This document shows, piece after piece, positions 13,180-64,000 of a DNA stretch of 64,000 bases. The notes under the pieces were generated by a model that was given only the letters and a program-made list of their open reading frames with translations, made no database searches and was not told the DNA's origin. Positions within the stretch are counted from its first letter, which is position 1. Each line of letters starts with the position of its first letter. The position numbers and the translations under genes were made by a program. This DNA is from Pedosphaera sp. (GTDB lineage Bacteria > Verrucomicrobiota > Verrucomicrobiia > Limisphaerales > SXQI01): positions 15 through 64,014 of the forward strand of contig JANYDC010000027.1 in the NCBI GenBank assembly GCA_025359965.1, given 5' to 3'.

Positions 13180-13393
13180 GCATCCCGAGTCGAAAGGCGC
13201 GTCAGCCATGACGCTGCCTTCCGGGAAGCTAATGATGCGCCGAACCACTCGCGCCCACGGGTGGTTTCGGGGCATTTTTGCCCCCCCCGGAGCACGCCAA
13301 ACAAACAGCATTTGGCACCCAGCCTGCTGCAACAATGAGGTTGCCAAAATAGCGAAAAAGCGAAGAATTAAACTGTACCGAGATTGCAAACCA

Positions 13394-40674: not shown

Positions 40675-41578
40675 GTCGCTGGCCAGCAAGTATCTCGATT
40701 CGGCGGTGCTGAGCCGGCTCATGGCCCAGCCGTTGCTAACCACAATGGCCATGCAAGGGACCGTCTCCGGACTTCACCGAAGCCCGCACAAGGGGTCGAG
40801 CGTGGAATTCGCTGAGTACCGGAATTATGCGCCGGGAGATGATTTGCGCCGCCTTGACTGGAGGGTGTTTGCACGAACGGACCGGTTTTTTCTCAAGGAA
40901 TTTGAGGCCGAAACAAATCTGCGCTGCCATCTTGTCCTTGATGGAAGTGGGTCCATGGCCTTCTCGTATAAAACCAACCCCGCTAAATTTGATTACGCCC
41001 GGCGACTGGTCGCCACTTTCGCTTATCTTTTGGTCCATCAAGGCGACGCGGCTGGATTGACCATCTGTAGCCGGACCCCACCCCCGGAGATCCCCCCCAA
41101 GCGCACGCCAAGCCACGTCCAGCTCATCCTGGAATCCATTGATACCGCCACGGCCGAAGGGGAAACACTTGTTGTTAAAGAGTTGCACGCGATGGCCGAG
41201 CGTATTCGCCCGCGTGCGATGGTGGTGGTGATCTCCGATTTTTTCTGCGACCTGGAGGAACTTGTGGGAGCGGTGCAGCATCTGCGCTTCAAGAAGCATG
41301 ACGTGGTGATGCTTCAATTGCTGGACCGCCAGGAAGTGGAGTTTAAGTTTGACCACCCGGTGCGCTTTCAGGATTTGGAAAGCAGCACAAGCATCGTGGC
41401 CGAGCCACAATTGATCCGTGAGGAATATTTAAGGCAACTTTCGCTCTTCCAGGATTCACTGCGACAAAAGGCATCGGAAATGAGGGTGGACCTGCGGACC
41501 TTCATGACCGATGAACCCATCGAGAAAGCGGCCTCGGGGCTGCTGTTGGCTCGAGCCCAACTGGCCACTGCTGGATAG
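40667..41578 (+). CDS. DUF58 domain protein (MoxR partner)
   Basis: GTG start overlapping the moxR stop. HRSPHKGSSVEFAEYRNYAPGDDLRRLDWRVFAR DUF58 signature. Confidence 0.85.
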   Translation: MSESLASKYLDSAVLSRLMAQPLLTTMAMQGTVSGLHRSPHKGSSVEFAEYRNYAPGDDLRRLDWRVFARTDRFFLKEFEAETNLRCHLVLDGSGSMAFSYKTNPAKFDYARRLVATFAYLLVHQGDAAGLTICSRTPPPEIPPKRTPSHVQLILESIDTATAEGETLVVKELHAMAERIRPRAMVVVISDFFCDLEELVGAVQHLRFKKHDVVMLQLLDRQEVEFKFDHPVRFQDLESSTSIVAEPQLIREEYLRQLSLFQDSLRQKASEMRVDLRTFMTDEPIEKAASGLLLARAQLATAG

Positions 41579-41584
41579 AATCGC

Positions 41585-49592: not shown

Positions 49593-51065
<1,473 letters not shown>

Positions 51066-51094
51066 TCAATATTCCAACCGCGTTAAAAAGATGA

Positions 51095-51973
51095 TCAACC
51101 CATCGCCATCTGGGCGGTGGTGATTTCGAGGAGTTCCTTGGTGATGTTGGCCTGGCGCAGCTTGTTGTACTCCAAGGTCAAATCCTTGATGATCTGCTTG
51201 GCGTTGTCCGTGGCGTTTTTCATGGCCACCATTCGAGCACTCTGTTCCGAAGCCTTGGCTTCGCGCAAAAGATGAAAAACTTTATAGTTCAAGTAATGCG
51301 GAAGCAGGCTGCTCAGCACTTCTGAAGCTCCAGGTTCAAACAAATATTCTGTCGCTTCAGCCGTCAAAAGCTCAGGAGCGGCTTCACCCTTAAAGTCAGA
51401 TTCCACCTTTTCAATGGCTCCAATCGGCAGGAGTGTTCTGATTTCAGGTTTTTGTACCAGAGTGGAGACGAAATTAGTGAACAGTACGTCCACTCGATCC
51501 ACTTTTCCTTCCAAAAAGATCTGTTGAGCCATCTTGGAAATGGCGCGTGCTTCGGCAAAAGACGGGGTGTCCTTATAGGAGAATTCAGCAGCCAACTCAC
51601 GCTTCGAGCGCGCCACCCACTGGCTGCTCTTGCGTCCAGCGCAGATATAAACGGTCGTGTCCTTATCAAATTTGCCCGCTTCGCGCAGAAGGTTGGTGTT
51701 CAAGGCACCGCAAAGACCCTTGTCGGTGCTGATGACAATCAAGCCGCGCTTTACGACACTGCGCTTCTCAATCAAAGGGTGAGTAAAATCACCCGCGCCG
51801 GCGGTGGTGGCAGCCAGCACTTTGTTCATCAGATCGGCGTAGGGCCGGCCTGCGAGGGCCGCCATCTGCGCCTTGCGCATTTTAGCCGAGGCAACCATCT
51901 CCATCGCCTTGGTGATCTGCGCTGTATTCTTGACCGACTTAATTCGCCGGCGTATGTCGCGTGTGCTGGGCAT
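51095..51973 (-). CDS. atpG: F0F1 ATP synthase subunit gamma
   Basis: MPSTRDIRRRIKSVKNTAQITKAMEMVASAKMRKAQ. Confidence 0.9.
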   Translation of the reverse strand: MPSTRDIRRRIKSVKNTAQITKAMEMVASAKMRKAQMAALAGRPYADLMNKVLAATTAGAGDFTHPLIEKRSVVKRGLIVISTDKGLCGALNTNLLREAGKFDKDTTVYICAGRKSSQWVARSKRELAAEFSYKDTPSFAEARAISKMAQQIFLEGKVDRVDVLFTNFVSTLVQKPEIRTLLPIGAIEKVESDFKGEAAPELLTAEATEYLFEPGASEVLSSLLPHYLNYKVFHLLREAKASEQSARMVAMKNATDNAKQIIKDLTLEYNKLRQANITKELLEITTAQMAMG

Positions 51974-52036
51974 TTGACAAATTCTTATTGTGCTCGGAAT
52001 GCTCGCTCCGGAAAGGTTCCGGAACTTGCCTACCGC

Positions 52037-53569
52037 CTACTTGTACGACTGTTTCAACTCGGTGATAGCTGCTTTCAATTCGGCAGCCAAAGCGTCGCTG
52101 AAAGCTTTTTCGACGCGGATTTTTTCCAACAAAGCAGGCTTGCGAGTGGTCAGCATGTCGGTCAGCTTCAACTGGAAATCCTTGACCTTGTCAACCGCCA
52201 CGTCATCCAACTGGTTGTTTTGCATGGCCCATAGGAGGGAGGATTGAATCTCAACTGGAATGGGGTTGTATTGAATCTGCTTAAACAACTCGACGATGCG
52301 CTTGCCGCGTTCAAGCGTGGCTTGGGTTTTGGCATCCAAGTCGGAACCAAACTGTGCGAACGCAGCCAATTCACGGTACTGGGCCAAATCCAACTTAATA
52401 CGACCGGCCACCTGTTTCATGGCTTTGATTTGGGCGGCTGAACCGACTCGGCTCACCGACAAACCGACGGAAATAGCAGGACGAATACCTTGGTAGAACA
52501 AGTCGGTTTCCAGATAAATCTGGCCGTCCGTGATGGAAATCACATTGGTGGGGATGTATGCGGAAACGTCACCAGCCTGGGTTTCAATGATAGGCAGGGC
52601 AGTCAGGGAGCCGTTACCATATTTCGGACTGACACGGGCGCTACGTTCGAGCAAGCGACTGTGGAGATAGAATACATCGCCAGGATAAGCTTCTCGGCCG
52701 GAGGGGCGTTTCAACACCAGCGAAACCTGTCGGTAGGCCACGGCCTGCTTGGAAAGATCGTCGAAAATGATCAATGCATCCATGCCGTTGTCCATGAACC
52801 ATTCACCCATGGAAGCTCCGGCAAAAGGAGCCAGATACTGGTTGGCGGCGGAATCAGAGGCAGTAGCAGCCACTACGATGGTGTCTTCCATGGCCCCGGC
52901 TTTTTCCAACTCGGCGATGACGCGGGCCACATTGGACTGCTTCTGACCCACGGCGACGTAGATGTTGTAAACAGGGCGGAAATTCTTATCACCTGAAGCG
53001 CGGCCCACTTTGTTCATGCGGGCCTGATTGATCATCGTGTCGACGCCAATCGTGGTTTTGCCCGTCGAACGGTCGCCAATGATCAGCTCGCGCTGACCAC
53101 GACCGATGGGAATCATGGCGTCGATGGACATGATGCCAGTCTGGAGAGGCTGGTTGACCGACTGGCGTTTGATAATGCCGGGCGCGATTTTCTCAATGGG
53201 GTAGGAAACATCACTGACGATGGGGCCTTTGCCGTCAATGGGTCGGCCAAGAGTGTCGACCACGCGGCCGAGAAGACCTTTGCCAACGGGAACGGACAAC
53301 ACTTTGCCAGTGGTGCGGACTTCCGCGCCTTCTTTCACGGAGGTGTATTCACCCAAGATGATGGCGCCGACCTCATTCTCTTCAAGGTTGAGGGCGAGGC
53401 CCACCACTCCGTTGCCGAAATCGAGCATTTCGTTCAACATTGCATCGGTCAAACCTTCGACCTTGGCCACGCCGTCGGAAATTTCGCGGACAACGCCGAC
53501 ATTCTGGCGGGCCACAGTCGTTTTCACCCCTGCAATCTGGGCCTCGATATCTTGAAGTAATGTGCTCAT
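52037..53569 (-). CDS. atpA: F0F1 ATP synthase subunit alpha
   Basis: Walker [10 protein letters not shown]. Length 510 aa. Confidence 0.95.
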
Positions 53570-53613
53570 GGAATCCGAAAATAAATCCAGTACTTAAAAA
53601 ACTATGCTATCAA

Positions 53614-54006
53614 TTAAAAAGTCTCTTGCAATGCGTTGAGTCGCGCCAACACTGATCCGTCGTAAACATCGCTGCCGACCTTGATGCGCAAACCACCCAA
53701 AAGAGCGGGATTGCTACCGAAGGTCATGGTCAACCCAGGACCATAGGTCTTGGTCAGGCTGGCCTGAAGCTTTGCTTTCATTTCCGCATCAAGCTCAACA
53801 GGGCTTTCGACATGAGCTGAGCGGCGGACAACCTCCAACTTCACCAATCTTTCAAGATGCGAGAGGATACCGGCGTAACCGCGGGGCTTCTGCGCGATTA
53901 CCAGACGAAAGGCTTCCCGGACCCGGTTTTCATCCATCACTCCGTTGACCAAGGAGGCGCGGAACAAACCTTTGGCTTCGCGACGGGCTAGTTTGGAGCT
54001 CTTCAT
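53614..54006 (-). CDS. atpH: F0F1 ATP synthase subunit delta (short, 130 aa)
   Basis: Position between atpF and atpA. OSCP-like C-terminal region LGGLRIKVGSDVYDGSV. Confidence 0.7.
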   Translation of the reverse strand: MKSSKLARREAKGLFRASLVNGVMDENRVREAFRLVIAQKPRGYAGILSHLERLVKLEVVRRSAHVESPVELDAEMKAKLQASLTKTYGPGLTMTFGSNPALLGGLRIKVGSDVYDGSVLARLNALQETF

Positions 54007-54016
54007 GTCAGGTTAC

Positions 54017-54580
54017 TCAGGCGGCCAGTTGGCGATTGGTCTCATCAGCCAATCGTTTTTGATCTTCGATGGTTAGAACCTTACCAGTCGCTTGAATAGT
54101 GGTACGAACCACCAGTTGGCCAATCTCGCGCTTCAACTCTGCGAGCATCAAGGCATGATCGGCAGCAGCTGCCTCGCGGGCCTTGGAAATGATCTGTTCG
54201 GCGGCAGCAATGGCTTTCTGGGTCTCAACCTCTTGGACTTTTGCGGCGGCCGCGCGCGCCTCTTCAATTAGCTTCATGGCTTGCGCGTTTGCTTGGCTCA
54301 TGGTTTCGCGACGGGAAGCTTCCGCTTTGGCCAGTTCCTGCTTAATCTTCTCGGCATTCTCAAGGCCCTGTGCAATGAGTTTACGGCGCTCGGCCAAAAC
54401 AGCCAGCACAGGTTTGTAGGCAAGCATGCGCAGTAAAAAGGCGACCAGCAAAAAGCTAATCACCTGCGAGAGAAGCAGGGAGCCGTTCACACCGAACTGC
54501 TCACCAGTGTTCTGCGCGGTTTTGGCCAGGCTTGCCACAAGACCGTCGTCAGCAGCTGCAAGAAGGGCAAAGGAGGTCAT
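54017..54580 (-). CDS. atpF: F0F1 ATP synthase subunit b
   Basis: Single N-terminal TM then long Ala/Glu/Lys-rich helix. Start taken at MTSFALLAA. Confidence 0.8.
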   Translation of the reverse strand: MTSFALLAAADDGLVASLAKTAQNTGEQFGVNGSLLLSQVISFLLVAFLLRMLAYKPVLAVLAERRKLIAQGLENAEKIKQELAKAEASRRETMSQANAQAMKLIEEARAAAAKVQEVETQKAIAAAEQIISKAREAAAADHALMLAELKREIGQLVVRTTIQATGKVLTIEDQKRLADETNRQLAA

Positions 54581-54647
54581 AATAAAATAATCAAAAAACG
54601 AGAATGCCGGGCGGGACCGCTTTGAAACGGTCCCGCCCAAAGCTTTC

Positions 54648-54893
54648 TTACTTCACTAGGAAGATCGCGAAAAACACGATACCTTCAGCGAAGGCAGTGC
54701 TCAGAATCGCCTGCACGAGGATTTTCGTGGCAGCACCGGGATTGCGGCCCACTGCTTCAGAGGCGCGCATACCGATCATTCCGACACCAATCGCAGCACC
54801 GGCTGCTGCTGCGGCGACGTGAACATTTCCGGTAAGTTCGGCCAACATTGGAATTAACATATTCAGTCCTTCGATTTTTGCTGTGATCAACAC
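54648..54893 (-). CDS. atpE: F0F1 ATP synthase subunit c
   Basis: GAAIGVGMIG...RNPG...FAEGIVFFAIFL hairpin with conserved Glu. Confidence 0.85.
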   Translation of the reverse strand: MLITAKIEGLNMLIPMLAELTGNVHVAAAAAGAAIGVGMIGMRASEAVGRNPGAATKILVQAILSTAFAEGIVFFAIFLVK

Positions 54894-54937
54894 CCCCCGC
54901 AGTCAAAGCCACGGTCAGAATGCCGAAATTATAGAAT

Positions 54938-55891
54938 CTAGTGCTTGTGCTCCCCGGCGTGGCCGTGAGCGGGTTCGTGAGCGTGCTCCTCATCATGGGA
55001 GCAAATGAGCAGAGTGAAGACGGCGGTCAGCAGCATGAACACCAAGGCCTGAACCATACCGACCAGCAACTCCATGAAATAGAAAGGAATGGGAATCAAC
55101 CAACCAAAGCCAGGAACGAGCGTGGCCATTGTTTCCAACATGTTCTCACCAGCGAATATATTTCCATACAAACGGAAGCTCAAGGAAACAGGGCGGAAGG
55201 CAATCGAAACCACTTCCAACACACCGACAGCGAGGAACACGACAATCATGCCCCATTTCATGATGCCGGTAGTATCCCCTTTAGGCCCAAAAATATGCAT
55301 AACGAAACCGCCAGGGCCGTTTGCTTGCAGCGCCCAGACAATCCAGCAGGCGAAGAAAACCAACGACATTGCCAACGTCATGTTCAGATCAGCATTAGCA
55401 CCACGCAGAAGCGATGTTGTGAAATGATGGAAATGGCCGTTCTCATCAGGATGCCCCCAACCTATTGAGCCCACCCCTGGTATCAAACCAGCCCAGTTTG
55501 TGGCCAAAACCAGAATGAAAAGCGTGGCAAAAAACCAAAATGTTTTGCGAGCCAGATCTGCCCCCATAATTCCACCCAGAAAATCGTCAAGCCCTTCGAC
55601 AAGCCATTCCCAGAAATTCTGCGCGCCTTGAGGCACCATGCGAACGTTGCGCATGGCCAATTGTGCACCAATGATCAGGAGAATTGCCACCGCCCATGTG
55701 ATGACCATGGAATTAGTGAGGACAAGCGGTCCAAACTTGGCCACAGGAGCTGCGTAGAGCGGAATACCTTCCTTTTCGGCATGCTCCGCATGGCCAGCAG
55801 GTGCAGCCACAGCATGACCTTCAGCCGCAAAGGCCAATGGCGCGAAGGCGATTCCCAAAACTCCAACCAAAAATAGCAAAAATGTCCGCAT
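54938..55891 (-). CDS. atpB: F0F1 ATP synthase subunit a with N-terminal signal-like extension and His-rich termini
   Basis: Core a-subunit motifs (LSFRLYGNIFAGE). N-term MRTFLLFLVGVLGIAFAPLAFAAEGHAVAAPAGHAEHAEKEG. C-term HDEEHAHEPAHGHAGEHKH. Confidence 0.85.
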   Translation of the reverse strand: MRTFLLFLVGVLGIAFAPLAFAAEGHAVAAPAGHAEHAEKEGIPLYAAPVAKFGPLVLTNSMVITWAVAILLIIGAQLAMRNVRMVPQGAQNFWEWLVEGLDDFLGGIMGADLARKTFWFFATLFILVLATNWAGLIPGVGSIGWGHPDENGHFHHFTTSLLRGANADLNMTLAMSLVFFACWIVWALQANGPGGFVMHIFGPKGDTTGIMKWGMIVVFLAVGVLEVVSIAFRPVSLSFRLYGNIFAGENMLETMATLVPGFGWLIPIPFYFMELLVGMVQALVFMLLTAVFTLLICSHDEEHAHEPAHGHAGEHKH

Positions 55892-56399: not shown

Positions 56400-58163
56400 T
56401 CATGATCCCACCGGCAGCCGCAACGTAAAAATTGTGCCCTTGGCTGGGCGGGATTTGACTTCAATGCGGCCGTGATGTGCCTCCATAATTCTCGCCACGA
56501 TAGCCAAACCCAAACCAGTCCCCTTGCGTTTTGTTGTCTTCAGCAAAGACGAAAACACTCTCTTACACTGCTCTTCTGTCATGCCGTCGCCGTTATCACG
56601 GAATTCGATCATGACCATGGCTCCTGCCTCGCCCGCATTCTGAACCTTGGTGGTAATGGTCAGCTTTCCGCCCTTTGGCATCGCTTCAACCGCATTTAGG
56701 GTGAGATTGAGGAAAACCTGTTCCAACTGAGCGGAATCAGCGGAAACCATAGGCAGGTTTTCGCCGAGCTTGTGAATCCAGGCAATATTTTGGTTACGGA
56801 GCTTGTGCCGGACCAAAAGCGCGAGATCGTTGAGGAGGCGGTTAATATCCACCGGTCCAATTTGAGGTTCGCTGGTTCGGGCAAAATCGAGAATTTGTTC
56901 CACGATGCGGTTCAGCTGATCCATCTTCTCGCTCATCACCTTGACGTCGCGCACACGGGGATCACTCGGTTCGAAACGCAAGTCCAGAGAGTGGAACAGC
57001 ATCTTGATCACGGTCAGCGGGTTGCGAATCTCATGGGCCACCTCGGCCGCCAACAAACCGATGGCACTTAGTTTTTCGTTCTGACGGATATGCTCTTCCA
57101 TATCGACCAGACGTTCGTAAAGACGGGCTTTCTCGATGGCGATGCCGCTAAGCTCGGCCAAAGCTGATAGAATACGTATTTCTTCGTTGGAAAAATTGGT
57201 GAGTGAGGCCGTGTAAACATTCAGCGCGCCTATGGGCTCTCCGAGATACATCAAAGGAACGCTGAGTAGAGAAACCAGCCCTTCGCGCCTGGCCACCCCC
57301 ACGTTTTGGTAGCGGGTGGAAGTCTGCACGTTTTCGACTTGAAGGGCCTTTTTCCGTCGGACCACGATGCCCAGGAAACTTTCGGCAATACTGAGTCTTG
57401 GCTTGTTGATGTAGGCATCCCCTGCCCCATAACTTGCGCGTAAGTCCAGCCATTCGTGTGTTTCGTCCAGCAAAAGCAACGAACACATTTTCCCGCTCAT
57501 CAACTCACACGCCTCGTACGTAATCACCTTGAGCGCCTCATCCAGGTTCAAAGTGGAGTTAATGGTCTGCCCCACGCTGAAAAGGGACTCGAACAAACGA
57601 GCTTTGAGACGGTTTTGCTCATAAAGCCACGTGTTCTTGATGACGCGCGAGGCCTGCCGCGCCACATCATGCAAGAGTGCCTCGTCCTGCGGGGAGAACG
57701 CATCAGGCTGGCTGGAATCCACATTCAAGACCCCGCGAATCTCACCATCAACCTCAATGGGCACGGCCATCTCTGAAACCACGCTGGCCTTGGCCGGGAT
57801 ATATCGCGCATCCGCCCGGACGTCTCCCACACGCGCTCCTTTGCCGTGCAAGGCCACCCAACCTGTGATGCCCTCCCCTACTTTGAGCCGCAGAGCTTCA
57901 CCAGAAAGGGGCAGACCGTGCGAAGCCTGGATCTCCAAAAATTGCGTGGTGGGATTCACCAAAATAACCGATCCACTGGTGGCCCGCGTAACACGAACTG
58001 TTTCGCGCATGATCAACTCAAGCACACGCTGGGGTTCCAGCGTGGAGTGGATGACATCATTGACCTGAGCCAGTACCTGCAGGCGGTCGAATCGTGCCTG
58101 TAAGGCACGATAAGCGGCGGCGGAGACTTTCTCTTCTTTCAGCGGGTTCTTTGCGTTAGCCAT
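56400..58163 (-). CDS. Cytoplasmic GAF-domain sensor histidine kinase (2 GAF + HisKA + HATPase_c), no adjacent response regulator
   Basis: AHEIRNPLT H-box, N box LNLTLNAVEAM, G boxes DNGDGM / GTGLGLAI. No TM segments. Start MANAKNP overlaps lptF/G-like gene end by about 25 nt. Confidence 0.85.
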   Translation of the reverse strand: MANAKNPLKEEKVSAAAYRALQARFDRLQVLAQVNDVIHSTLEPQRVLELIMRETVRVTRATSGSVILVNPTTQFLEIQASHGLPLSGEALRLKVGEGITGWVALHGKGARVGDVRADARYIPAKASVVSEMAVPIEVDGEIRGVLNVDSSQPDAFSPQDEALLHDVARQASRVIKNTWLYEQNRLKARLFESLFSVGQTINSTLNLDEALKVITYEACELMSGKMCSLLLLDETHEWLDLRASYGAGDAYINKPRLSIAESFLGIVVRRKKALQVENVQTSTRYQNVGVARREGLVSLLSVPLMYLGEPIGALNVYTASLTNFSNEEIRILSALAELSGIAIEKARLYERLVDMEEHIRQNEKLSAIGLLAAEVAHEIRNPLTVIKMLFHSLDLRFEPSDPRVRDVKVMSEKMDQLNRIVEQILDFARTSEPQIGPVDINRLLNDLALLVRHKLRNQNIAWIHKLGENLPMVSADSAQLEQVFLNLTLNAVEAMPKGGKLTITTKVQNAGEAGAMVMIEFRDNGDGMTEEQCKRVFSSLLKTTKRKGTGLGLAIVARIMEAHHGRIEVKSRPAKGTIFTLRLPVGS

Positions 58164-59257
58164 AAGCCTGTGCCTCCAAACAAAAGATTCGGCAGCCAAC
58201 CCGCCGCAAGGGCCGGAATATGTCCTCCGGTTCCCAAAGCCAAGGCGAAACGCAGCACTATAAAATAAGCAAAACAGATGAAGATACTGCTGGCCACACC
58301 GACAAACACATTGCGCCTGCCCGAAGCCGCACCGAAAGGCAGAGCGATTAAAACCACCACCAGCGGCATCCACGGCTGAGCCAGCCGGGCATGCCATTGC
58401 GTGCTCAGCATGGCTCGGTCGCGCTGGTTGAGATCGAGATGTGTGCTAAGATAAACCAACTCCTGCAAGGTCAGATGAGGCTTGCGTGCGGCGTCGATGC
58501 TGCTGAGGCGGTTGAATTTCATGACCACACGGAAATCCTCAGGCGTCTCTGCCAGTTCTGGCATAAAGACATAATTGGTCCGCCCGGTCTGCAAGCCCGA
58601 TTCGAAATCGGTTTGGTTTTTGTAGCGAAAGGTTTGCACGTCAGAAAAACCCCACGCGCCGTTGGTTGGGGAGGCCCTTTTTGCAAACAGGCGGTTCATG
58701 GTCCCGTTCGTGCCAGGCCATTCCACCTGAACCGCACGCATCTCCGAGGTAATTGTGTCAAACGCACCAATGGCCCAAATGCGGCCATCCCGCGCATTGC
58801 GGAAATGCACTGTCGGATGAACCCGGCTTGCCGCGGATTCCGCGCTTTCGTTCTTGTTTAAGATACTCAGGCTGCGTGCCGTCGCCACGGGCACTACATA
58901 TTCACCCAGCAAAAAGACCGTGATGCTGAAGGTCAGCCCAAGCGCGAGGTAGGGCAGACAAATGCGCCACAGACTAAGACCAGCCGACCTCATGGCGGTC
59001 AATTCATGGTGTCGCGCGTGGTTGGTCAGGGCGTACAAAAGCGCCAGCATTAGGGCCACGGGCATGACAAAAACGAGCATCTCCGGTGCTCGCATTGCGT
59101 AATAAAAACCGATATCGCCAAAGGAAAGATGCCTCTCCTGCAAGGACGCAAAATTGTTAAACGCCTCGAAAGTGACCCAAAACAGCAGGAACCCGCTCAG
59201 AGTATAACTGAGCGGGACAAGAACTTCGCGGAAGACGTACCGATCCAGCAAACGCAC
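58139..59257 (-). CDS. LptF/LptG family permease (YjgP/YjgQ)
   Basis: MRLLDRYVFREVLVPLSYTLSGFLLFWV typical N-terminus. 6 TM with large periplasmic loop. Confidence 0.8.
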   Translation of the reverse strand: MRLLDRYVFREVLVPLSYTLSGFLLFWVTFEAFNNFASLQERHLSFGDIGFYYAMRAPEMLVFVMPVALMLALLYALTNHARHHELTAMRSAGLSLWRICLPYLALGLTFSITVFLLGEYVVPVATARSLSILNKNESAESAASRVHPTVHFRNARDGRIWAIGAFDTITSEMRAVQVEWPGTNGTMNRLFAKRASPTNGAWGFSDVQTFRYKNQTDFESGLQTGRTNYVFMPELAETPEDFRVVMKFNRLSSIDAARKPHLTLQELVYLSTHLDLNQRDRAMLSTQWHARLAQPWMPLVVVLIALPFGAASGRRNVFVGVASSIFICFAYFIVLRFALALGTGGHIPALAAGWLPNLLFGGTGLWLTQRTR

Positions 59258-59689
59258 TAGGTGAGCGTAGGTTTGCCAAGGTCACAAGGCAAGAAGCAGG
59301 TGGATTAGTTGAGGGTCTGCTCCGAACGCTGACTGATCAAAAGATTGCGCTGCACTTACAAAATCCATTCACCGAAGCCGAAGGGATACACCCACAAGAA
59401 GCGGAAAACAGTTAAGTGAGGTGCCGGTCTTACGCGGTCAATTCCAAATACTCCATGTTGGAAAACAACCATGTCGTTCATGCCAAAGCACTTATCCGAC
59501 CCAATAATCTTGGGATTTCACCACAATCCATTTCTTCGGTCTGAGAGAAAAGTCCCACTTGTGCTGTGAGACGCACACTTTGCATTTAGGCGAGGTGCCG
59601 TGTAATTTCGGCGCACACCAAAAAATGGCGGCGGTTTGCGATTGGCAAAACGACTGGGGATTCATTATCCTCCCGCCCCCGATGGGATT

Positions 59690-60649
59690 ATGCGCCAACT
59701 TGGCACCATAGCTTGGAATGCGTTCATGGAACTGGTCCGACAGCCGGTCTTCCTGCTGTTGATGACTTGTGCCGCTGCATTCAACATGCTGCTCGCGAGT
59801 ATGTTCTACTTCAGTTTTGGGGATGACCCGAAGTTGGTGAAGGACAGCGTTCTTGCGGTCATGCTCCTAACAGGGCTTTTCGGCGCGGTGATTAGCGCCT
59901 CGGCCTCAGTCGCCAATGAAATCAGGTCGGGGACTGCTTTGGCGGTTCTTTCAAAGCCGGTGGGAAGGTTTCGTTTCCTGGTGGGAAAATTTCTCGGACT
60001 AGCCGGTGCGCTGTCCGTGATGACATTCGTCAATTTTCTGTGCGCGCTATTGGCAAGTCGCATGGCCTTCGATGCGTACGGCGAGCCGGACAAACCGGCG
60101 CTGGTTATTTTTTTCACCATGTTGCTTTTGGCATACGCCTTGGCCGGGATGAGTAATTTCTTTCTGCGCAGGGTATTTGTGCCTGATGCAGTATTCGGGG
60201 TGGTGATCGGCGCTACTGTCGCCTTCCTGATCATCTGTTTCGTCAGTAAGGACTGGACCCTTCAAGAGTTTGCCAAGGGCGTGGACTGGCGTCTCGTCCC
60301 GGCCTCGATCCTCATTCTGTTCGCCCTTTGGATCATTTCAGGACTGGCTCTGGCGTGCTCGACACGGGTCGACGTCATACCCACACTCAGCATCTGCTCC
60401 GCGTTGTTCCTGATAGGCTTGATGTCGGATTATATGTTTGGACGAGCGGCGGATCACGGTTCAATCATCGCCCGCGTCTGTTATGCGATTTCGCCGAACT
60501 GGCAGCAACTTTGGCTGGCGGATGCCTTGGAAAACGGACGTTCCATCCCGTGGAACTACGTCTGGAACGCTTTTGTTTACGTCGCGTGTTATTTGGGGGC
60601 CGTACTGGCGGTTGCCCTGGTCCTGTTTGAGGACCGCGAGCTTAACTGA
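59690..60649 (+). CDS. ABC-2 type transporter permease-like membrane protein (no ATPase gene adjacent)
   Basis: MRQLGTIAWNAFMELVRQPVFLLLM NosY/ABC-2-like N-terminus, 6-7 TM. Alternative TTG start at 59636. Confidence 0.6.
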   Translation: MRQLGTIAWNAFMELVRQPVFLLLMTCAAAFNMLLASMFYFSFGDDPKLVKDSVLAVMLLTGLFGAVISASASVANEIRSGTALAVLSKPVGRFRFLVGKFLGLAGALSVMTFVNFLCALLASRMAFDAYGEPDKPALVIFFTMLLLAYALAGMSNFFLRRVFVPDAVFGVVIGATVAFLIICFVSKDWTLQEFAKGVDWRLVPASILILFALWIISGLALACSTRVDVIPTLSICSALFLIGLMSDYMFGRAADHGSIIARVCYAISPNWQQLWLADALENGRSIPWNYVWNAFVYVACYLGAVLAVALVLFEDRELN

Positions 60650-60657
60650 TTGGGAGC

Positions 60658-62526
60658 ATGGAAAAAAATTCACCAACGATTGGTATCGTCAACGTCTTCG
60701 TCCTTCTGGCCGCTGGGATCGCGTCCCTTGCCCTTGCGCTTTACGACGGCACTTTTGCAGGACAGATCGTCGCAGTCTTCTTCGCCGCAGGCTTTCTGAC
60801 CGCCGTGGTCGGCCTTATCCAAATGCGTTTGGAGGAAAAGGAGCGTCTTGAAAGGCTGGACTTCGACGAAATGAATAAGACTTCGAAATCATCCAGCCTC
60901 TTTACAGGCGCGGAAGAAGAAGTGCTCCAAGCCAAACAGTCCCGGCTCACCTTCGAGAAATATTTCATCCCAGGTTTTGCGATCCTTTTGATTATCAGCT
61001 TGGGAGCAGCCTCCTATTTGTTGATGCAGTGGCTCCGAGATGCCGCCATTACTCCGCCGCGCGATCCGATGGTTGCCCTCTCGCTTTTTGCGACTGTGGC
61101 AATAATTCTGTTCGTCCTCGGCAAATACGCGGCAAACCTTTCCAAGCTTCAAGGGCTGCGGCTGCTGCGGCCAGCCGCCAGCTATCTCGTACTTGGCTTT
61201 TACCTGTGCACAGCAGTTGCGATTTCCATCGGTTGGGCTTGGAGCGGCGGTGCCAAGGCGGATATGTGGCTGGCCAAAGCCCTGACAGCTCTGCTTGCTG
61301 TGATCTCGGCTGAATTGGTGGTCAACCTCATACTTGAAATTTATCGTCCTCGCCATCGCAAACAGGCTGCCCGTCTGGTGTATGAGAGCCGTCTGGTGGG
61401 CCTTCTTGGCCAGCCTGAAGGACTTTTTACCACGGCTTCCCAAGCCTTGGATTACCAGTTTGGCTTCAAAGTCTCCGAGACTGGGTTCTATCTGTTCATG
61501 CAAAGGAATCTTGCACGAATTGTCCTTTTGCAAATGGCGGTCCTGCTAATCTCGACCAGCATTGTATTCATATCCCCAGGCGAGCAGGGTTTGATTGAGC
61601 GTTTTGGCCGGGCCACCTCGGACAACAACATTTTGGATCCTGGTCCACACTTAAAACTTCCTTGGCCGATTGACCAGGTCTACCGATTCCGCACTCAGGA
61701 AATTCAAAGTTTCAACGTCGGGTTTCAGACCGATGAAAAAGAGGAACACAACAAGGGCCCGATTCTGTGGACCGTGAAGCACTATAAGGAGGAGTTTAAT
61801 TTGCTGGTGGCCAGCCGCGAACAAACCCAATCCTCCACCAATCTCTCGGAACGCTCCGCCCCTGCCGACCTGCTAACGGTCAGCATCCCGGTGCAATTCC
61901 TGATACAGGATTTGCGCGCCTGGGCATATCAGCACACCGATGCTGCAAGGTTATTGGAAAAGGCTGCCACCCGCGAAGTGATCCTGTATTTGGTGGGCGT
62001 GGATATTTTCGACATCATGAGTCATGGCCGCACCAAGGCTGCGGAAGATCTTCGTGGCCTCATCCAAAAGCGGGCCGACGATCTTCATCTGGGGGTCAAG
62101 ATTCTGTTCGTTGGTTTGCAGGATATCCACCCGCCCGTCAAAGTTGCGGCTTCGTTCGAGGCGGTGGTCGGTTCAAAACAGGATAACGAGGCAAAGTTGC
62201 GCATTTCTGAGGGATACGCCAGTCGCACAGTTGCACTGGCCAAGGCAGAAGCCGACAAAAAAGAGCGCGAGGCTGAATCCTACTCGATACGAAAAATCGC
62301 TGGCTCAGCCGCCCAGGCCAAACAGTTTGAGAGCCAACTGCTCGCTTATCAGGCCGCCCCCGAGGTTTATGCACAGCGGGCCTACTTGCAATCCTTCGCC
62401 CGCGGCAGCACTAACAGCCGCAAATATATTATTACTGCAACCAACTCCCAGGAAACGGTTATCCTGAATCTCGAGGACAAGATTCGCCAGGACATCCTTG
62501 ATATCCCCCTCCCTTCGAAACGCTGA
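60658..62526 (+). CDS. Membrane protein with N-terminal polytopic domain and C-terminal SPFH/band-7 domain
   Basis: About 330 aa with 7-8 TM then ISPGEQGLIERFGRATSDNNILDPGPHLKLPWPIDQVYRFRTQEIQSF (SPFH start) and coiled-coil tail. Confidence 0.7.
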   Translation: MEKNSPTIGIVNVFVLLAAGIASLALALYDGTFAGQIVAVFFAAGFLTAVVGLIQMRLEEKERLERLDFDEMNKTSKSSSLFTGAEEEVLQAKQSRLTFEKYFIPGFAILLIISLGAASYLLMQWLRDAAITPPRDPMVALSLFATVAIILFVLGKYAANLSKLQGLRLLRPAASYLVLGFYLCTAVAISIGWAWSGGAKADMWLAKALTALLAVISAELVVNLILEIYRPRHRKQAARLVYESRLVGLLGQPEGLFTTASQALDYQFGFKVSETGFYLFMQRNLARIVLLQMAVLLISTSIVFISPGEQGLIERFGRATSDNNILDPGPHLKLPWPIDQVYRFRTQEIQSFNVGFQTDEKEEHNKGPILWTVKHYKEEFNLLVASREQTQSSTNLSERSAPADLLTVSIPVQFLIQDLRAWAYQHTDAARLLEKAATREVILYLVGVDIFDIMSHGRTKAAEDLRGLIQKRADDLHLGVKILFVGLQDIHPPVKVAASFEAVVGSKQDNEAKLRISEGYASRTVALAKAEADKKEREAESYSIRKIAGSAAQAKQFESQLLAYQAAPEVYAQRAYLQSFARGSTNSRKYIITATNSQETVILNLEDKIRQDILDIPLPSKR

Positions 62527-62539
62527 TTTTTCACAGAAC

Positions 62540-63445
62540 ATGAAACGCAACGCCCTGACCCTAACCGTTGGCCTCGTGGTCCTTCTCATCTTTCTGGCTC
62601 TGCTCTGCACTTTCCAAGTGCGACAGACCGAGGTGGTCGTGGTGACGACTTTTGACAAGCCCAATGATCCCATCACGGAACCCGGACTCTATGCCAAATG
62701 GCCCAGGCCCATTCAACGAGTCTACCGTTTCGACAAACGAATCCAGAATTTCGAGGATAATTTCGAGGAAACACTCACCATCGACAACTACAACCTGCTC
62801 ACCATGGTCTACGTGGGTTGGTCAATCAGTGATCCGAAGCTGTTCTTCAACAGCTTTCCCTCAGGAGAGGCTGAGGCTGCCGAGCCTTCGCTGAAGGGCT
62901 TGATCCGTTCCGCCAAGAATGCGGTCATGGGTCAGTATAAATTCTCCGATTTTATTTCCACTGACCCGAAGCAGCTTAAGTTTGTCGAGGTAGAGGGCAA
63001 AATGCTCGGACAGGTTAAGGATGCAGCCCAGTCCAAGTACGGCATTAATGTACAGTTCCTCGGCATCAAGAAACTCGGCCTGCCAGAAAGCGTCACCACC
63101 AAAGTCTTTGACCGCATGGCGGCTGAACGGCAGCGCGAAGTGGAGCGCCTGAAAGCCACCGGCGAAGCCGAGGCCATGAAAGTCCGCAGCGCGGCTGATC
63201 GTGATCGCAACGAGATCCTGGCCAAAGCCGAAGCCACCGCCAGCGCCATTCGTGGTCAAGCTGATGCCGAAGCTGCAAAATCCTTCGAAATCTTCAAAAG
63301 CAGCCCGGATCTCGCCATCTTCTTGCTCAAACTCACCGCTCTTGAACAATCATTGAAAGAGCGGTCCACCCTAATTCTCGACGAGCGGACCCCGCCCTTC
63401 GATCTCTTGAATCAATCGTTCAAGAGCTCAACCCCGAAGAATTGA
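62540..63445 (+). CDS. SPFH domain protein, HflC-like
   Basis: N-terminal TM LTLTVGLVVLLIFLALL then QVRQTEVVVVTTFDKP...GLYAKWPRPIQRVYRFDKR. EA-rich coiled coil. Confidence 0.75.
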   Translation: MKRNALTLTVGLVVLLIFLALLCTFQVRQTEVVVVTTFDKPNDPITEPGLYAKWPRPIQRVYRFDKRIQNFEDNFEETLTIDNYNLLTMVYVGWSISDPKLFFNSFPSGEAEAAEPSLKGLIRSAKNAVMGQYKFSDFISTDPKQLKFVEVEGKMLGQVKDAAQSKYGINVQFLGIKKLGLPESVTTKVFDRMAAERQREVERLKATGEAEAMKVRSAADRDRNEILAKAEATASAIRGQADAEAAKSFEIFKSSPDLAIFLLKLTALEQSLKERSTLILDERTPPFDLLNQSFKSSTPKN

Positions 63446-63449
63446 GCGC

Positions 63450-64000
63450 ATGAGCGAACCTCACGACCACGATCACGATCACGGCCATAGCCATGATCAC
63501 ATTCCGCTCAAACCGGCACCTTCACCGATTGCGGAGCCAATTGCTGCCACCGCGCCCCAAGACGAATCTGCCTCACAAGCCTTGTCGGACGCATTGAGCA
63601 GCAGCTTTGCCATCGTCAAGGTCGTAATGGTTATTCTGGTGGTCGTATTCTTTGCGCGCGGCATCTTTACGGTTCCTTCCCAGCAAAAAGCCATCATCCT
63701 ACGTTTTGGCAAACCTATCGGAGTGGGAGCGGAACAATTGCTCGGGCCGGGATTGCACTGGTCTTTCCCCTACCCCATTGATGAAGTGAAATGGCTTCCA
63801 GTTGGCGAGATTCAACGAGTAACCTCCACAGCCGGTTGGTACGCCACCACTCCAGAACTGGAAGCCAGCAACTCTGAATCTCCAGCAGGGCCATCCTTGA
63901 ATCCTGGCTACGATGGCTACACCCTGACGGCTGACGGTAATATCATCCACGTTCGCGCCACACTGAGCTATCGAATCTCCGACCCGCTTACCCACGAATT
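63450..64000 (+). CDS. SPFH domain protein, HflK-like, with His/Asp-rich N-terminus. 3-prime truncated by window edge
   Basis: My own translation from about 63450: MSEPHDHDHDHGHSHDHIPLKPAPSP...TM (IVKVVMVILVVVFFA)...AIILRFGKPIGVGAEQLLGPGLHWSFPYPIDEV. Not in the supplied ORF track because no stop is reached. Start coordinate +/-1. Confidence 0.65.
   Translation, partial: MSEPHDHDHDHGHSHDHIPLKPAPSPIAEPIAATAPQDESASQALSDALSSSFAIVKVVMVILVVVFFARGIFTVPSQQKAIILRFGKPIGVGAEQLLGPGLHWSFPYPIDEVKWLPVGEIQRVTSTAGWYATTPELEASNSESPAGPSLNPGYDGYTLTADGNIIHVRATLSYRISDPLTHE

What the first reader, a model, noticed from the sequence alone, without database searches (positions are those of the whole stretch)
59636..64000. 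Orphan ABC-2-like permease followed by three tandem SPFH genes, the last with an HDHDHDHGHSHDH N-terminus
The permease has no ATPase partner (upstream is a 430-bp gap). Three SPFH proteins follow with spacings of 8, 13 and 4 nt. The first has a 330-aa polytopic N-domain fused to SPFH. The second is HflC-like. The third is HflK-like with a His/Asp-rich N-terminus, a likely divalent-metal binding segment, and continues past the window end. HflK/C normally pair with FtsH, which is not present here. The triple SPFH + permease arrangement is not a named system that I recognise. It could be a membrane-scaffolded transporter or protease-regulatory module.
Basis: partly seen in the sequence, partly recalled or inferred. 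Interest (0 to 1): 0.6.

Follow-up and report, generated by a model that had tools for sequence, protein, structure and literature searches.

The report
SPFH-caged metal pump operon, Verrucomicrobia
The three tandem SPFH (HflK/HflC-like) genes are the front half of a strongly conserved eight-gene operon that continues past the window end with a histidine-rich heavy-metal P-type ATPase and the "missing" ABC ATPase. It is a larger, undescribed relative of the poorly understood zinc-regulated hmtA locus of Pseudomonas aeruginosa.

Summary
The genes, spacings and His/Asp tract are real. The permease is "orphan" only because the window ends too early. Contigs identical to the window show that the next gene is a His-rich CPC-type P1B heavy-metal ATPase. 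In 80 related Verrucomicrobiota species the order is perm1, S1, S2, S3, P1B ATPase, ABC ATPase, second ABC-2 permease, TPR-like membrane protein. The first five genes are conserved in 69-78 of 69-78 evaluable loci, and the ABC ATPase follows in 53 of 59, while flanking genes differ. No ftsH lies in the window or in 100 loci, but E. coli hflKC is not next to ftsH either, so that test is uninformative.

The four-gene core (long polytopic HflK, HflC-like, HflK-like, P1B ATPase) also occurs in Rhizobium, Burkholderia, Klebsiella and Kosakonia. By published annotation it matches the Zur-regulated hmtA locus PA2439-PA2435 of P. aeruginosa. His-rich cytoplasmic tails sit on different SPFH subunits in different lineages. 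The S1 N-domain resembles a cation-diffusion-facilitator membrane domain that has lost its metal site.

The best reading is an HflK/C-type cage that scaffolds metal and ABC transporters. This is a new variant of a known but uncharacterised kind.

The parts
59560..59585 (+). Conserved upstream cis element TGTGC-N8-GCACA followed by CTTTGCAT. It is a probable operator or promoter element of the operon.
   Evidence: The same element, TG(T/C)GC-N4-10-GC(A/G)CA followed by (C/G)TTT(G)CAA, lies 52-222 nt (mostly 120-200 nt) upstream of perm1 in 23 of 66 related loci. The 12-mer RACGCACASTTT occurs exactly once per locus in 16 loci, always at this place and on this strand. It is the only match in the 64-kb window. 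The stem bases are invariant, so there is no covariation, which favours a protein-binding DNA site. There is no Rfam hit. The binding factor is unknown.
59690..60649 (+). perm1: six-helix ABC-2-type permease of 319 aa, first gene of the operon. The ORF as listed starts at TTG 59636.
   Evidence: PF12679 ABC2_membrane_2 scores 28.0 bits against a cut-off of 27.2. Alignments in relatives start at ORF residue 19, which is the ATG at 59690. The gene is present directly upstream of S1 in 72 of 72 evaluable loci. An orthologue is present, sometimes inverted, in 5 of 5 distant loci.
60658..61341 (+). S1 residues 1-228: six-transmembrane N-domain with a CDF-like (cation diffusion facilitator) fold and no canonical metal site.
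61342..61506 (+). S1 residues 229-283: near-invariant cytoplasmic linker motif YRPR...Y(E/D)SRL.GL..P.G...A..(L/V)(D/N)YQFGF.VS.TWFY.
   Evidence: It holds most of the invariant columns in alignments A1 and A2, down to 26% overall identity. It is retained in all family members printed from the search of 1.84 billion representatives. It is homologous to the corresponding region of the proteobacterial long HflK proteins (hhalign probability 87%). It has low pLDDT in the monomer model, so it is probably an interaction surface (inference).
61507..62526 (+). S1 residues 284-622: HflK-type membrane anchor, SPFH domain and C-terminal coiled-coil region.
   Evidence: Band_7 E 5.9e-14. TIGR01933 hflK scores 126.6 bits against a cut-off of 159.4. 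The closest solved chain is E. coli HflK, at 4e-16.
62540..63445 (+). S2: HflC-like SPFH protein of 301 aa with a single N-terminal anchor.
   Evidence: Band_7 9e-26. TIGR01932 hflC scores 124.5 bits against a cut-off of 134.4. The closest solved chain is E. coli HflC, at 4e-26. BLAST scores are slightly higher to the proteobacterial operon S2 proteins (109-132 bits) than to E. coli HflC (96-101 bits). It follows S1 in 78 of 78 loci.
63450..64000 (+). S3: HflK-like SPFH protein. The window holds 183 of its 385 aa, and the full length is in L001:3785-4942.
   Evidence: The full length was read from the identical contigs L001 and L002. TIGR01933 hflK scores 128 bits against a cut-off of 159.4. 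The closest solved chain is E. coli HflK, at 1e-23. It follows S2 in 75 of 75 loci.
63462..63500 (+). His/Asp tract HDHDHDHGHSHDH in the N-terminal tail of S3, presumed cytoplasmic. It is a likely divalent-metal (Zn-type) binding segment.
   Evidence: The sequence is read directly. It is encoded by an imperfect (CAC GAY)n repeat. At least 3 His occur in 40 of 73 orthologous tails, at least 6 in 25 of 73, and 0-1 in 27 of 73. Equivalent tails sit on S2 in Rhizobium and Burkholderia. The peptide DLHDHDH of M. tuberculosis PacL1 binds Zn2+ with a KD of about 6 uM and does not bind Mn2+ (PMC9374683). The cytoplasmic location is inferred from the HflK topology.

Best explanation
The region is the 5' half of a single conserved operon of Verrucomicrobiota (Limisphaerales/Pedosphaera group). 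Its gene order is perm1, S1, S2, S3, P1B ATPase, ABC ATPase, perm2, X.

Proposed mechanism:
- S1 (a CDF-like six-helix domain fused to HflK), S2 (HflC-like) and S3 (HflK-like) co-assemble into an HflK/HflC-type ring or cage on the periplasmic face of the inner membrane.
- Instead of, or in addition to, FtsH, the cage corrals the co-encoded transporters. These are a CPC-type, His-rich P1B ATPase of the kind linked to SPFH triplets in Proteobacteria (the P. aeruginosa hmtA-locus type, probably handling Zn2+ or a similar divalent metal) and a heterodimeric ABC-2 transporter with a membrane-anchored TPR-like partner.
- The His/Asp tail of S3 lies on the cytoplasmic side next to the His-rich N-terminus of the ATPase. 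It acts as a local metal-binding antenna or chaperone, like the DLHDHDH motif of the mycobacterial scaffold PacL1.

Shown: the gene content and order, their conservation, the family assignments, the His tracts, and the existence of the same four-gene core in Proteobacteria.

Inferred: co-assembly, the client relationship, the metal identity, the direction of transport, and the sidedness of the tails.
For: - Downstream gene. Contigs identical to the window extend it and show a His-rich P1B ATPase 28 nt after S3.
- Full operon. It was read in the relative L004 and its parts identified by Pfam and NCBIfam. The ATPase scores 571 bits on TIGR01525 and 489 bits on TIGR01512 (Cd family).
- Conservation. 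Co-linear conservation holds in 80 species: perm1 72/72, S2 78/78, S3 75/75, ATPase 69/69, ABC ATPase 53/59, perm2 47/47, X 45/45. Median intergenic gaps are 7, 22, 7 and 34 nt. Flanking genes are not conserved.
- Distant relatives. Five loci whose S1 N-domain is about 30% identical keep perm1, S1, S2, S3, ABC ATPase, perm2 and X in 5 of 5 cases. The ATPase is present in 3 of 5, once at a different position. Each protein is the best match of its own counterpart.
- Proteobacteria. The same core (long polytopic HflK, HflC-like, HflK-like, P1B ATPase, mostly with 4-nt overlaps) occurs in Rhizobium, Klebsiella, Burkholderia and Kosakonia.
- ATPase kinship. Among at least 5000 plasmid records that encode P1B ATPases, the five best matches to the verrucomicrobial ATPase are those next to SPFH genes. 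Four (H1-H4) were checked by annotation or coordinates, and the fifth (H5) has S1 and S2 matches within 4 kb.
- Shared ATPase signature. CPC occurs in 61 of 63 ATPases, and a His-x-x-G/S-S/T motif in the last helix in 60 of 63. The proteobacterial ones have HN(M/V)(S/G)T.
- His-rich tails. They sit on S3 in Verrucomicrobiota and on S2 in Rhizobium and Burkholderia.
- Literature. PA2437-PA2439 and hmtA are induced 5-14-fold in a znuA mutant (PMC4542158). Zur binds the PA2439 promoter (PMC8531726). The proteins rise on Zn depletion (PMC11761036). P. aeruginosa keeps a separate canonical hflKC (PMC13086221). PacL1-CtpC are described as metal efflux platforms (PMC9374683).
- ftsH. It is absent from the window and from 100 loci totalling 1.54 Mb.
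Against: - No physical evidence for co-assembly or for a cage-client relation. AF-multimer could not be run.
- S2 and S3 score only just below the HflC and HflK equivalog cut-offs. S3 is closer to E. coli HflK (97 bits) than to the proteobacterial operon S3 proteins (48-53 bits). They could therefore be the organism's ordinary FtsH modulators.
- I could not check whether these genomes hold another hflKC pair.
- The His tract is absent or minimal in 27 of 73 S3 orthologues. Its His count correlates only weakly with that of the ATPase (rho 0.27, not corrected for phylogeny).
- Two of five distant loci lack the ATPase.
- Orthology to P. aeruginosa PA2435-PA2439 rests on published annotation only. 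The sequences could not be retrieved.
- Metal specificity cannot be read from the motifs. The import claim for HmtA is itself described as needing confirmation (PMC10393844).
Confidence: 0.55

Rival explanations
1. These are ordinary HflK/HflC. S2 and S3, with S1 as an extra paralogue, are the organism's normal modulators of the FtsH protease. Their position inside a transporter operon reflects quality control of those membrane proteins by FtsH, or mere synteny, and not a dedicated transport scaffold.
For: The HMM scores are close to the equivalog cut-offs: S2 124.5 against 134.4, S3 128 against 159.4. E. coli HflK and HflC are the closest solved proteins. S3 is closer to E. coli HflK than to the proteobacterial operon S3 proteins. 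E. coli hflKC is not adjacent to ftsH either, so non-adjacency does not exclude an FtsH partnership. NCBI annotation names the family 'protease modulator HflK'.
Against: All three proteins fall below the curated cut-offs. S1 has 7 helices and a domain that no canonical HflK has. The SPFH genes are fixed between transporter genes in 69-78 species and in distant clades. The homologous proteobacterial triplets are welded to a P1B ATPase with 4-nt overlaps. In P. aeruginosa they coexist with a separate canonical hflKC (PMC13086221). Metal-binding tails on the SPFH subunits point to the metal pump, not to FtsH.
Confidence: 0.2
2. The core function is that of the ABC-2 transporter, for example export or flipping of a lipid or envelope component into an SPFH-defined membrane microdomain. 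The P1B ATPase is a frequent passenger and not the client.
For: perm1, S1-S3, the ABC ATPase, perm2 and X are present in 5 of 5 distant loci, but the ATPase only in 3 of 5. The ABC ATPase is of the DrrA/GldA ABC-2 type. perm2 has a large periplasmic insert and X is a TPR-like scaffold. SPFH proteins are generally tied to membrane microdomains (PMC10434171, PMC13086221).
Against: The ATPase is present in 69 of 69 close loci. It is the most conserved protein of the cluster between distant loci, at 53-56% identity. In Proteobacteria the SPFH triplet travels with the ATPase and without any ABC genes. Six of 59 loci lack the ABC part at this position but keep the ATPase.
Confidence: 0.15
3. The locus is an anti-phage defence or mobile-element cargo module that uses SPFH proteins.
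For: The proteobacterial versions sit on conjugative plasmids and next to transposases or integrases.
Against: No PADLOC model matches any protein except generic ABC-ATPase similarity. In Verrucomicrobiota the operon lies in housekeeping chromosomal context next to lptF/G and the ATP synthase genes. It is vertically conserved across many species.
Confidence: 0.02

Closest known systems
P. aeruginosa hmtA locus, PA2439-PA2434 (SPFH proteins PaFlo5-7 plus the P1B ATPase HmtA)
   Same: Three consecutive SPFH genes annotated as HflK family, HflC and HflC/K family are followed by a heavy-metal P1B ATPase in one locus whose first gene is the HflK-family gene (PMC4542158, PMC8531726). The same architecture was verified here by sequence in Rhizobium, Klebsiella, Burkholderia and Kosakonia: a long polytopic HflK, then an HflC-like protein, then an HflK-like protein, then a CPC-type ATPase with His in the last helix. 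S1 and S2 are best matches of their proteobacterial counterparts.
   Different: The verrucomicrobial operon adds perm1 in front and the ABC ATPase, perm2 and TPR-like protein X behind. Its S1 N-domain carries the YRPR...YQFGF motif and a detectable CDF-like signal. The His tail is on S3 and not on S2. S3 is not clearly orthologous to the proteobacterial S3. Zur regulation is unknown here, and the conserved upstream element is not Zur-box-like (own judgement). Identity with the P. aeruginosa proteins themselves was not tested.
E. coli HflK/HflC-FtsH complex (PDB 7VHP, 7WI3, 9CZ1)
   Same: All three proteins have SPFH domains plus C-terminal helical regions that are most similar to HflK or HflC. 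A K-like and a C-like gene are adjacent, with N-terminal membrane anchors.
   Different: There are three paralogues instead of two. All score below the equivalog cut-offs. S1 has six extra helices. The genes are embedded among transporter genes. There is no evidence for or against an FtsH partnership.
M. tuberculosis PacL1-CtpC 'metal efflux platforms' (PMC9374683)
   Same: A membrane-anchored scaffold protein is encoded with a P1B ATPase and carries a short cytoplasmic (H/D)n metal-binding motif: DLHDHDH there, HDHDHDHGHSHDH here. PacL1 was proposed to stabilise and feed the pump in high-molecular-weight membrane assemblies.
   Different: PacL1 is a small non-SPFH protein with Glu/Ala repeats, and its platforms exclude the flotillin homologue. 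The relation is functional analogy only, not homology.
Cation diffusion facilitator transporters (YiiP/FieF, ZnT/SLC30)
   Same: The S1 N-domain has six helices with both ends cytoplasmic. CDFs are the top structural matches by two methods, and the hhalign match is co-linear over the whole CDF membrane domain and lies above the controls.
   Different: The site-A ligands (D45, D49, H153, D157 of FieF) are replaced by hydrophobic residues. The cytoplasmic C-terminal domain is missing. Pfam Cation_efflux is not reached, apart from one member of 20 at E 4.7e-4. At best this is a degenerate, probably non-transporting derivative.

Membership tests
HflK/HflC modulators of FtsH | SPFH/Band_7 domain with an HflK- or HflC-type C-terminal region | tested here: met
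   Band_7 is found in S1, S2 and S3. The best solved relatives are E. coli HflK for S1 and S3 and HflC for S2.
HflK/HflC modulators of FtsH | Score above the curated equivalog cut-off of TIGR01933 (hflK, 159.4 bits) or TIGR01932 (hflC, 134.4 bits) | tested here: not met
   S1 scores 126.6, S2 124.5 and S3 128.0 bits.
HflK/HflC modulators of FtsH | Single N-terminal membrane anchor and one K plus one C subunit | tested here: not met
   S1 has 7 hydrophobic helices. There are three paralogues, in the order K-like, C-like, K-like.
HflK/HflC modulators of FtsH | Physical and functional association with FtsH | not testable with these tools
   No ftsH lies within the window or 100 loci. E. coli hflKC is not adjacent to ftsH either, so gene position is uninformative.
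SPFH-triplet plus P1B ATPase module (hmtA-locus type) | Gene order of long polytopic HflK-like, HflC-like, HflK-like, P1B ATPase on one strand with short gaps | tested here: met
   Seen in the window plus L001, in 69 of 69 loci, and in the same order in Rhizobium, Klebsiella, Burkholderia and Kosakonia.
SPFH-triplet plus P1B ATPase module (hmtA-locus type) | ATPase of the same subgroup: CPC in the metal-binding helix, His-x-x-G/S-S/T in the last helix, and closest relatives linked to SPFH genes | tested here: met
   CPC in 61 of 63 and the His motif in 60 of 63. The proteobacterial ATPases have CPC and HN(M/V)(S/G)T. The five best plasmid matches lie next to SPFH genes. A non-linked neighbour in the ranking has QEAGC instead.
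SPFH-triplet plus P1B ATPase module (hmtA-locus type) | One-to-one orthology of S1, S2 and S3 with the proteobacterial triplet | tested here: inconclusive
   S1 matches S1 (72-112 bits against 70 to E. coli HflK). S2 matches S2 (109-132 bits against 96-101 to E. coli HflC). S3 is closer to E. coli HflK (97 bits) than to the proteobacterial S3 proteins (48-53 bits).
SPFH-triplet plus P1B ATPase module (hmtA-locus type) | Sequence homology to P. aeruginosa PA2435-PA2439 themselves, and Zur or zinc-starvation control | not tested
   The P. aeruginosa sequences were not obtainable. The link rests on the annotation in PMC4542158, PMC8531726 and PMC11761036. Regulation is not testable in silico here.
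Cation diffusion facilitator (CDF) | Six-helix membrane-domain fold, co-linear with CDFs | tested here: met
Cation diffusion facilitator (CDF) | Transport-site ligands in helices 2 and 5 (DD-HD or HD-HD) | tested here: not met
   The aligned positions are hydrophobic. The invariant polar residues are elsewhere: D202, E219, E227.
Cation diffusion facilitator (CDF) | Pfam PF01545 above threshold, and a cytoplasmic C-terminal domain | tested here: not met
   Only 1 of 20 members gives a weak hit, at E 4.7e-4. A profile search against PDB sequences finds no CDF. The domain is followed by a linker and the HflK anchor instead of a CTD.
ABC-2 type transporter | ABC-2 permease with a cognate ABC ATPase in the same operon | tested here: met
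   perm1 hits PF12679 at 28.0 bits against a cut-off of 27.2. An ABC_tran ATPase and a second ABC-2-like permease lie downstream in 53 of 59 and 47 of 47 loci. This is not visible for the window organism itself, because the contigs end inside the P1B ATPase gene.

The most novel reading that the evidence does not exclude
S1-S3 form a new class of SPFH cage whose residents are metal pumps and not FtsH. It would be a membrane-delimited metal-handling compartment of the inner membrane and periplasm. One cage subunit (S1) is a fusion of a degenerate CDF transporter domain to HflK. Cytoplasmic His/Asp tails, acquired independently on different subunits in different phyla, funnel Zn-type metals to or from an HmtA-like P1B ATPase. 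In Verrucomicrobiota an ABC-2 motor with a TPR partner works inside the same cage.
Probability: 0.3. Interest if true: 0.8.

Novelty: new variant of a known kind. Interest (0 to 1): 0.6.

Why it matters
What bacterial SPFH cages are for is an open question. FtsH is the only structurally defined client of HflK/C, and knock-outs of the other bacterial SPFH proteins give only subtle phenotypes (PMC13086221).

This operon family links a three-paralogue HflK/C-like assembly to a defined set of transporters across at least two phyla and hundreds of species. It also carries built-in hints of function: metal-binding tails, a CDF-derived domain, and Zur control in Pseudomonas. That gives a concrete and genetically tractable candidate client, the P1B ATPase, testable in P. 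aeruginosa, Rhizobium or Klebsiella.

It could also explain the unusual behaviour reported for HmtA, which has so far been studied without its SPFH partners. In addition, it corrects the routine annotation 'protease modulator HflK/HflC' for thousands of database entries. It defines two uncharacterised families: the S1 N-domain, with 877 clusters at 50% identity, and protein X, with more than 4800 homologues that are all labelled 'hypothetical'.

Tried and rejected
- Upstream RNA element. No Rfam family matches the 430-nt upstream region at E up to 1.
- Promoter and terminator scans. The counts are no different from shuffled sequence.
- Adjacent ftsH. Motif scans and tblastn with E. coli FtsH found nothing in the window or in 100 loci. 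This is uninformative, because E. coli hflKC is also unlinked to ftsH.
- Defence system. PADLOC gives nothing specific.
- P. aeruginosa HmtA/PA2437-9 sequences. The Lewinson 2009 paper is not held. The third homologue search, seeded with the Klebsiella ATPase, returned only Enterobacterales in its top 120. No Pseudomonas record appears among the plasmid hits. The link therefore stays at annotation level.
- Sequence-only detection of CDF. A profile search against PDB sequences found none. Only fold comparison and profile-profile comparison show the signal.
- Proteobacterial S1 N-domains against CDF. No signal was found with only three sequences.
- His-tract correlation between S3 and the ATPase. 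It is weak (rho 0.27, p 0.03, uncorrected) and was not used as evidence.
- sigma-54 or CRP reading of the upstream element. The spacing does not fit the consensus sites as I know them, so no factor is assigned.
- Literature. Searches for SPFH plus P-type ATPase, ABC transporter, Verrucomicrobia or Akkermansia found no description of this operon.

Full report
**1. What is in the window**

On the + strand there are four closely spaced genes.

- perm1 is listed as ORF 59636-60649. Its likely start is the ATG at 59690, because alignments in relatives begin at ORF residue 19.
- S1 is 60658-62526 (622 aa).
- S2 is 62540-63445 (301 aa). The listed TTG start at 62498 is not supported by the alignments.
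- S3 starts at 63450 and runs off the window.

The gaps are 8, 13 and 4 nt. perm1 just reaches the Pfam ABC2_membrane_2 threshold, and all three S proteins have Band_7/SPFH domains. NCBIfam and PDB sequence searches show S1 and S3 to be HflK-like and S2 HflC-like, but all three fall below the curated equivalog cut-offs: 126.6 and 128 against 159.4, and 124.5 against 134.4. S3 begins MSEPHDHDHDHGHSHDH, encoded by an imperfect (CAC GAY)n repeat.

Upstream, after 432 nt, lie a divergent lptF/G gene, a GAF histidine kinase and the ATP synthase genes.

**2. What lies beyond the window end**

Two public contigs carry proteins identical to S1 (L001 and L002). They give the complete S3 (385 aa). Twenty-eight nt further on they show the start of a protein with the N-terminus ...HEHKHDHDHDHHHHDHDHDHDDCPSCGHDHEH... 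followed by membrane helices.

In the closest longer relative (L004, S1 65% identical) this gene is a 672-aa P1B heavy-metal ATPase. It has E1-E2_ATPase and Hydrolase domains, scores 571 bits on TIGR01525 and 489 bits on TIGR01512 (Cd family), and carries a CPC motif. It is followed by:

- an ABC ATPase of the DrrA/GldA type;
- a 460-aa ABC-2-like permease with a large periplasmic insert (perm2);
- a 504-aa protein without any Pfam or NCBIfam match (X).

The permease's ATPase partner therefore exists, four genes downstream.

**3. Conservation**

The best 80 are nearly all titled Verrucomicrobiota or members of that phylum (Limisphaerales, Pedosphaera and others); four carry other titles. tblastn with all cluster proteins shows co-linear, same-strand conservation in every locus long enough to judge:

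| Gene | Loci with the gene / loci evaluable |
|---|---|
| perm1 | 72/72 |
| S2 | 78/78 |
| S3 | 75/75 |
| P1B ATPase | 69/69 |
| ABC ATPase | 53/59 |
| perm2 | 47/47 |
| X | 45/45 |

Median gaps are 7, 22, 7 and 34 nt. The flanking genes of the window (lptF/G, kinase) and of L004 (aconitase, AhpC) are not found in the other loci. Selection therefore keeps the cluster, not the neighbourhood.

The S1 N-domain alone finds 877 clusters at 50% identity among 1.84 billion representatives. Among the full-length hits (about 600-850 aa) it lies at the N-terminus; shorter hits look like fragments. Five distant members (about 30% identity) were looked up. All five keep perm1, S1, S2, S3, the ABC ATPase, perm2 and X. 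Three keep the P1B ATPase, once moved to the other side. Each protein is the best match of its counterpart. X belongs to a family of more than 4800 proteins, all labelled "hypothetical".

A conserved DNA element, TGTGC-N8-GCACA followed by CTTTGCA, lies at window 59560-59585. It sits upstream of perm1 in at least 23 of 66 loci and is essentially unique to that position. This marks perm1 as the first gene of the operon. No riboswitch was found.

**4. Relation to known systems**

A literature search led to the P. aeruginosa hmtA locus. PA2439 (HflK family), PA2438 (HflC), PA2437 (HflC family), PA2436 and PA2435 (HmtA, a P1B ATPase reported to import Zn and Cu) are induced 5-14-fold in a znuA mutant (PMC4542158). 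[quoted passage not shown] The proteins rise on zinc depletion (PMC11761036).

A 2026 study names the three SPFH proteins PaFlo5-7. It notes that they form one operon of patchy distribution, finds only subtle mutant phenotypes, and does not connect them to HmtA. The same organism has a separate canonical hflKC (PMC13086221).

I could not obtain the Pseudomonas sequences. I did find the same module by sequence in four other places:

| Source | Long HflK (aa) | Second SPFH (aa) | Third SPFH (aa) | P1B ATPase (aa) |
|---|---|---|---|---|
| Rhizobium plasmid | 672 | 339 | 346 | 651 |
| Klebsiella aerogenes conjugative plasmid | 568 | 334 | 359 | 638 |
| Burkholderia plasmid | 631 | 345 | 347 | 649 |
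| Kosakonia chromosomal island | 633 | 332 | 356 | 644 |

Most of the gene junctions in these modules overlap by 4 nt. Among at least 5000 plasmid records with P1B ATPases, the five best matches to the verrucomicrobial ATPase are those next to SPFH genes.

All of these ATPases share CPC plus a His-x-x-G/S-S/T motif in the last helix. In Verrucomicrobiota, 61 of 63 have CPC and 60 of 63 have the His motif.

S1 and S2 are best matches of the proteobacterial first and second SPFH genes. S3 is closer to E. coli HflK than to the proteobacterial third gene, so its orthology is open.

Notably, His-rich N-terminal tails occur on S3 in Verrucomicrobiota (at least 3 His in 40 of 73) but on the HflC-like S2 in Rhizobium (MTHVHQHEDHDHHHDHHEH) and Burkholderia. 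This is apparently repeated acquisition of the same feature by different subunits.

A functional precedent is M. tuberculosis PacL1. It is a membrane scaffold encoded with the P1B ATPase CtpC, and its DLHDHDH motif binds Zn2+ with a KD of about 6 uM (PMC9374683).

**5. The S1 N-domain and protein X**

Hydropathy, the positive-inside rule and an AF2 model (pLDDT 78.8) give six helices with both ends cytoplasmic. These are followed by a near-invariant cytoplasmic motif (YRPR...YESRL.GL..P.G...A..LDYQFGF.VS.TWFY), then the HflK-type anchor and the periplasmic SPFH domain.

Several lines of evidence point to a CDF-like fold:

- Foldseek independently ranks YiiP and the ZnT proteins first, with TM-score about 0.5 but E only 5e-3.
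- One of 20 members gives a weak Pfam Cation_efflux hit, at E 4.7e-4.
- hhalign against an alignment of seven bona fide CDFs gives probability 77%, score 44.3 and 188 co-linear columns that cover the whole CDF membrane domain. Reversed, block-shuffled and unrelated six-helix controls give 26.7 or less and 5% or less.

The CDF transport-site residues are not conserved, and the cytoplasmic domain is missing. I therefore read this as a probable degenerate CDF-derived domain, with about 60% confidence. It is not an active CDF.

X is predicted (pLDDT 83) as a membrane-anchored TPR-like solenoid. It gives only generic TPR matches.

**6. Interpretation**

The best-supported reading is an HflK/C-type hetero-oligomeric scaffold dedicated to co-encoded transporters. 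These are an HmtA-type P1B metal ATPase and, in Verrucomicrobiota, an ABC-2 transporter with a TPR partner. The His/Asp tails would act as cytoplasmic metal antennae.

Co-assembly, the client relationship, the metal (Zn-type is favoured by the His/Asp and CxxC-GHDHEH N-termini and by the Pseudomonas data) and the direction of transport are all inferences.

The main rival is that S2 and S3 are simply the organism's HflC and HflK acting on FtsH. I could not exclude it, because whole genomes were out of reach and gene position is uninformative. A defence role is rejected.

**7. Verdict**

The "orphan permease" and the "ftsH test" parts of the interpretation fail, and the "scaffolded transporter" idea survives.

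The core has a documented but mechanistically unexplored precedent in the hmtA locus. The eight-gene verrucomicrobial form, the CDF-like fusion and protein X were not found described in the searched literature. I rate it a new variant of a known kind, with interest 0.6.

Noticed in passing
window 59560-59585 (+); also L004:8913-8924, L006:459-470, L007:8726-8737 and others: A conserved inverted repeat, TGTGC-N8-GCACA followed by CTTTGCA, lies upstream of the first operon gene in at least 23 of 66 related loci. The 12-mer RACGCACASTTT occurs once per locus, always there. It is probably an operator or promoter for an unknown regulator, and it is not Zur-box-like.
   Followed up: partly
window 63462-63500; L001:4998-5062: The His/Asp tracts of S3 and of the downstream P1B ATPase are encoded by imperfect (CAC GAY)n hexanucleotide repeats. 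Tract length varies from 0 to at least 18 His between species (counted in the first 45 residues), which suggests expansion and contraction by slippage.
   Followed up: partly
L004:18610-20124 and orthologues (L083:17468-19651, L085:17739-19745): Protein X, the last operon gene, belongs to a family of more than 4800 database proteins. All are annotated 'hypothetical' and none has a Pfam domain. It is predicted to be a membrane-anchored TPR-like solenoid with many invariant Trp, Arg and Asp residues.
   Followed up: partly
L025, L047, L049, L052, L059, L064: These six related loci keep perm1, S1, S2, S3 and the P1B ATPase but lack the ABC ATPase, perm2 and X at the usual downstream position. I did not determine whether these genes lie elsewhere in those genomes.
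   Followed up: no
window 56400-58397 (-) and 58139-59257 (-): The GAF-GAF-HisKA-HATPase kinase ORF as listed overlaps the lptF/G ORF by about 260 nt. Its real start is probably the internal Met (MANAKNPLKEEK...).
   Followed up: no
window 39568-45783 (+): A BatA-type aerotolerance-like gene set is present. The ORF at 41585-43597 has a BatA N-terminal domain, and the ORF at 43594-45783 has a weak VWA match. The neighbouring ORFs were not examined.
   Followed up: no
window 49593-55891 (-): An F1Fo ATP synthase gene cluster (a, b, alpha, gamma and beta subunits) lies here. It shows that the operon sits in housekeeping chromosomal context.
   Followed up: partly
window 13001-17815 (+): A very long ORF of 1604 aa. 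It was not examined.
   Followed up: no
L091 (Enterobacter hormaechei plasmid pEhoE1-2) 7259-9806: A P1B ATPase ranking just below the SPFH-linked ones lies next to the antimonite-responsive repressor AntR. It has QEAGC instead of the His motif in its last helix, so it belongs to a different subgroup.
   Followed up: no
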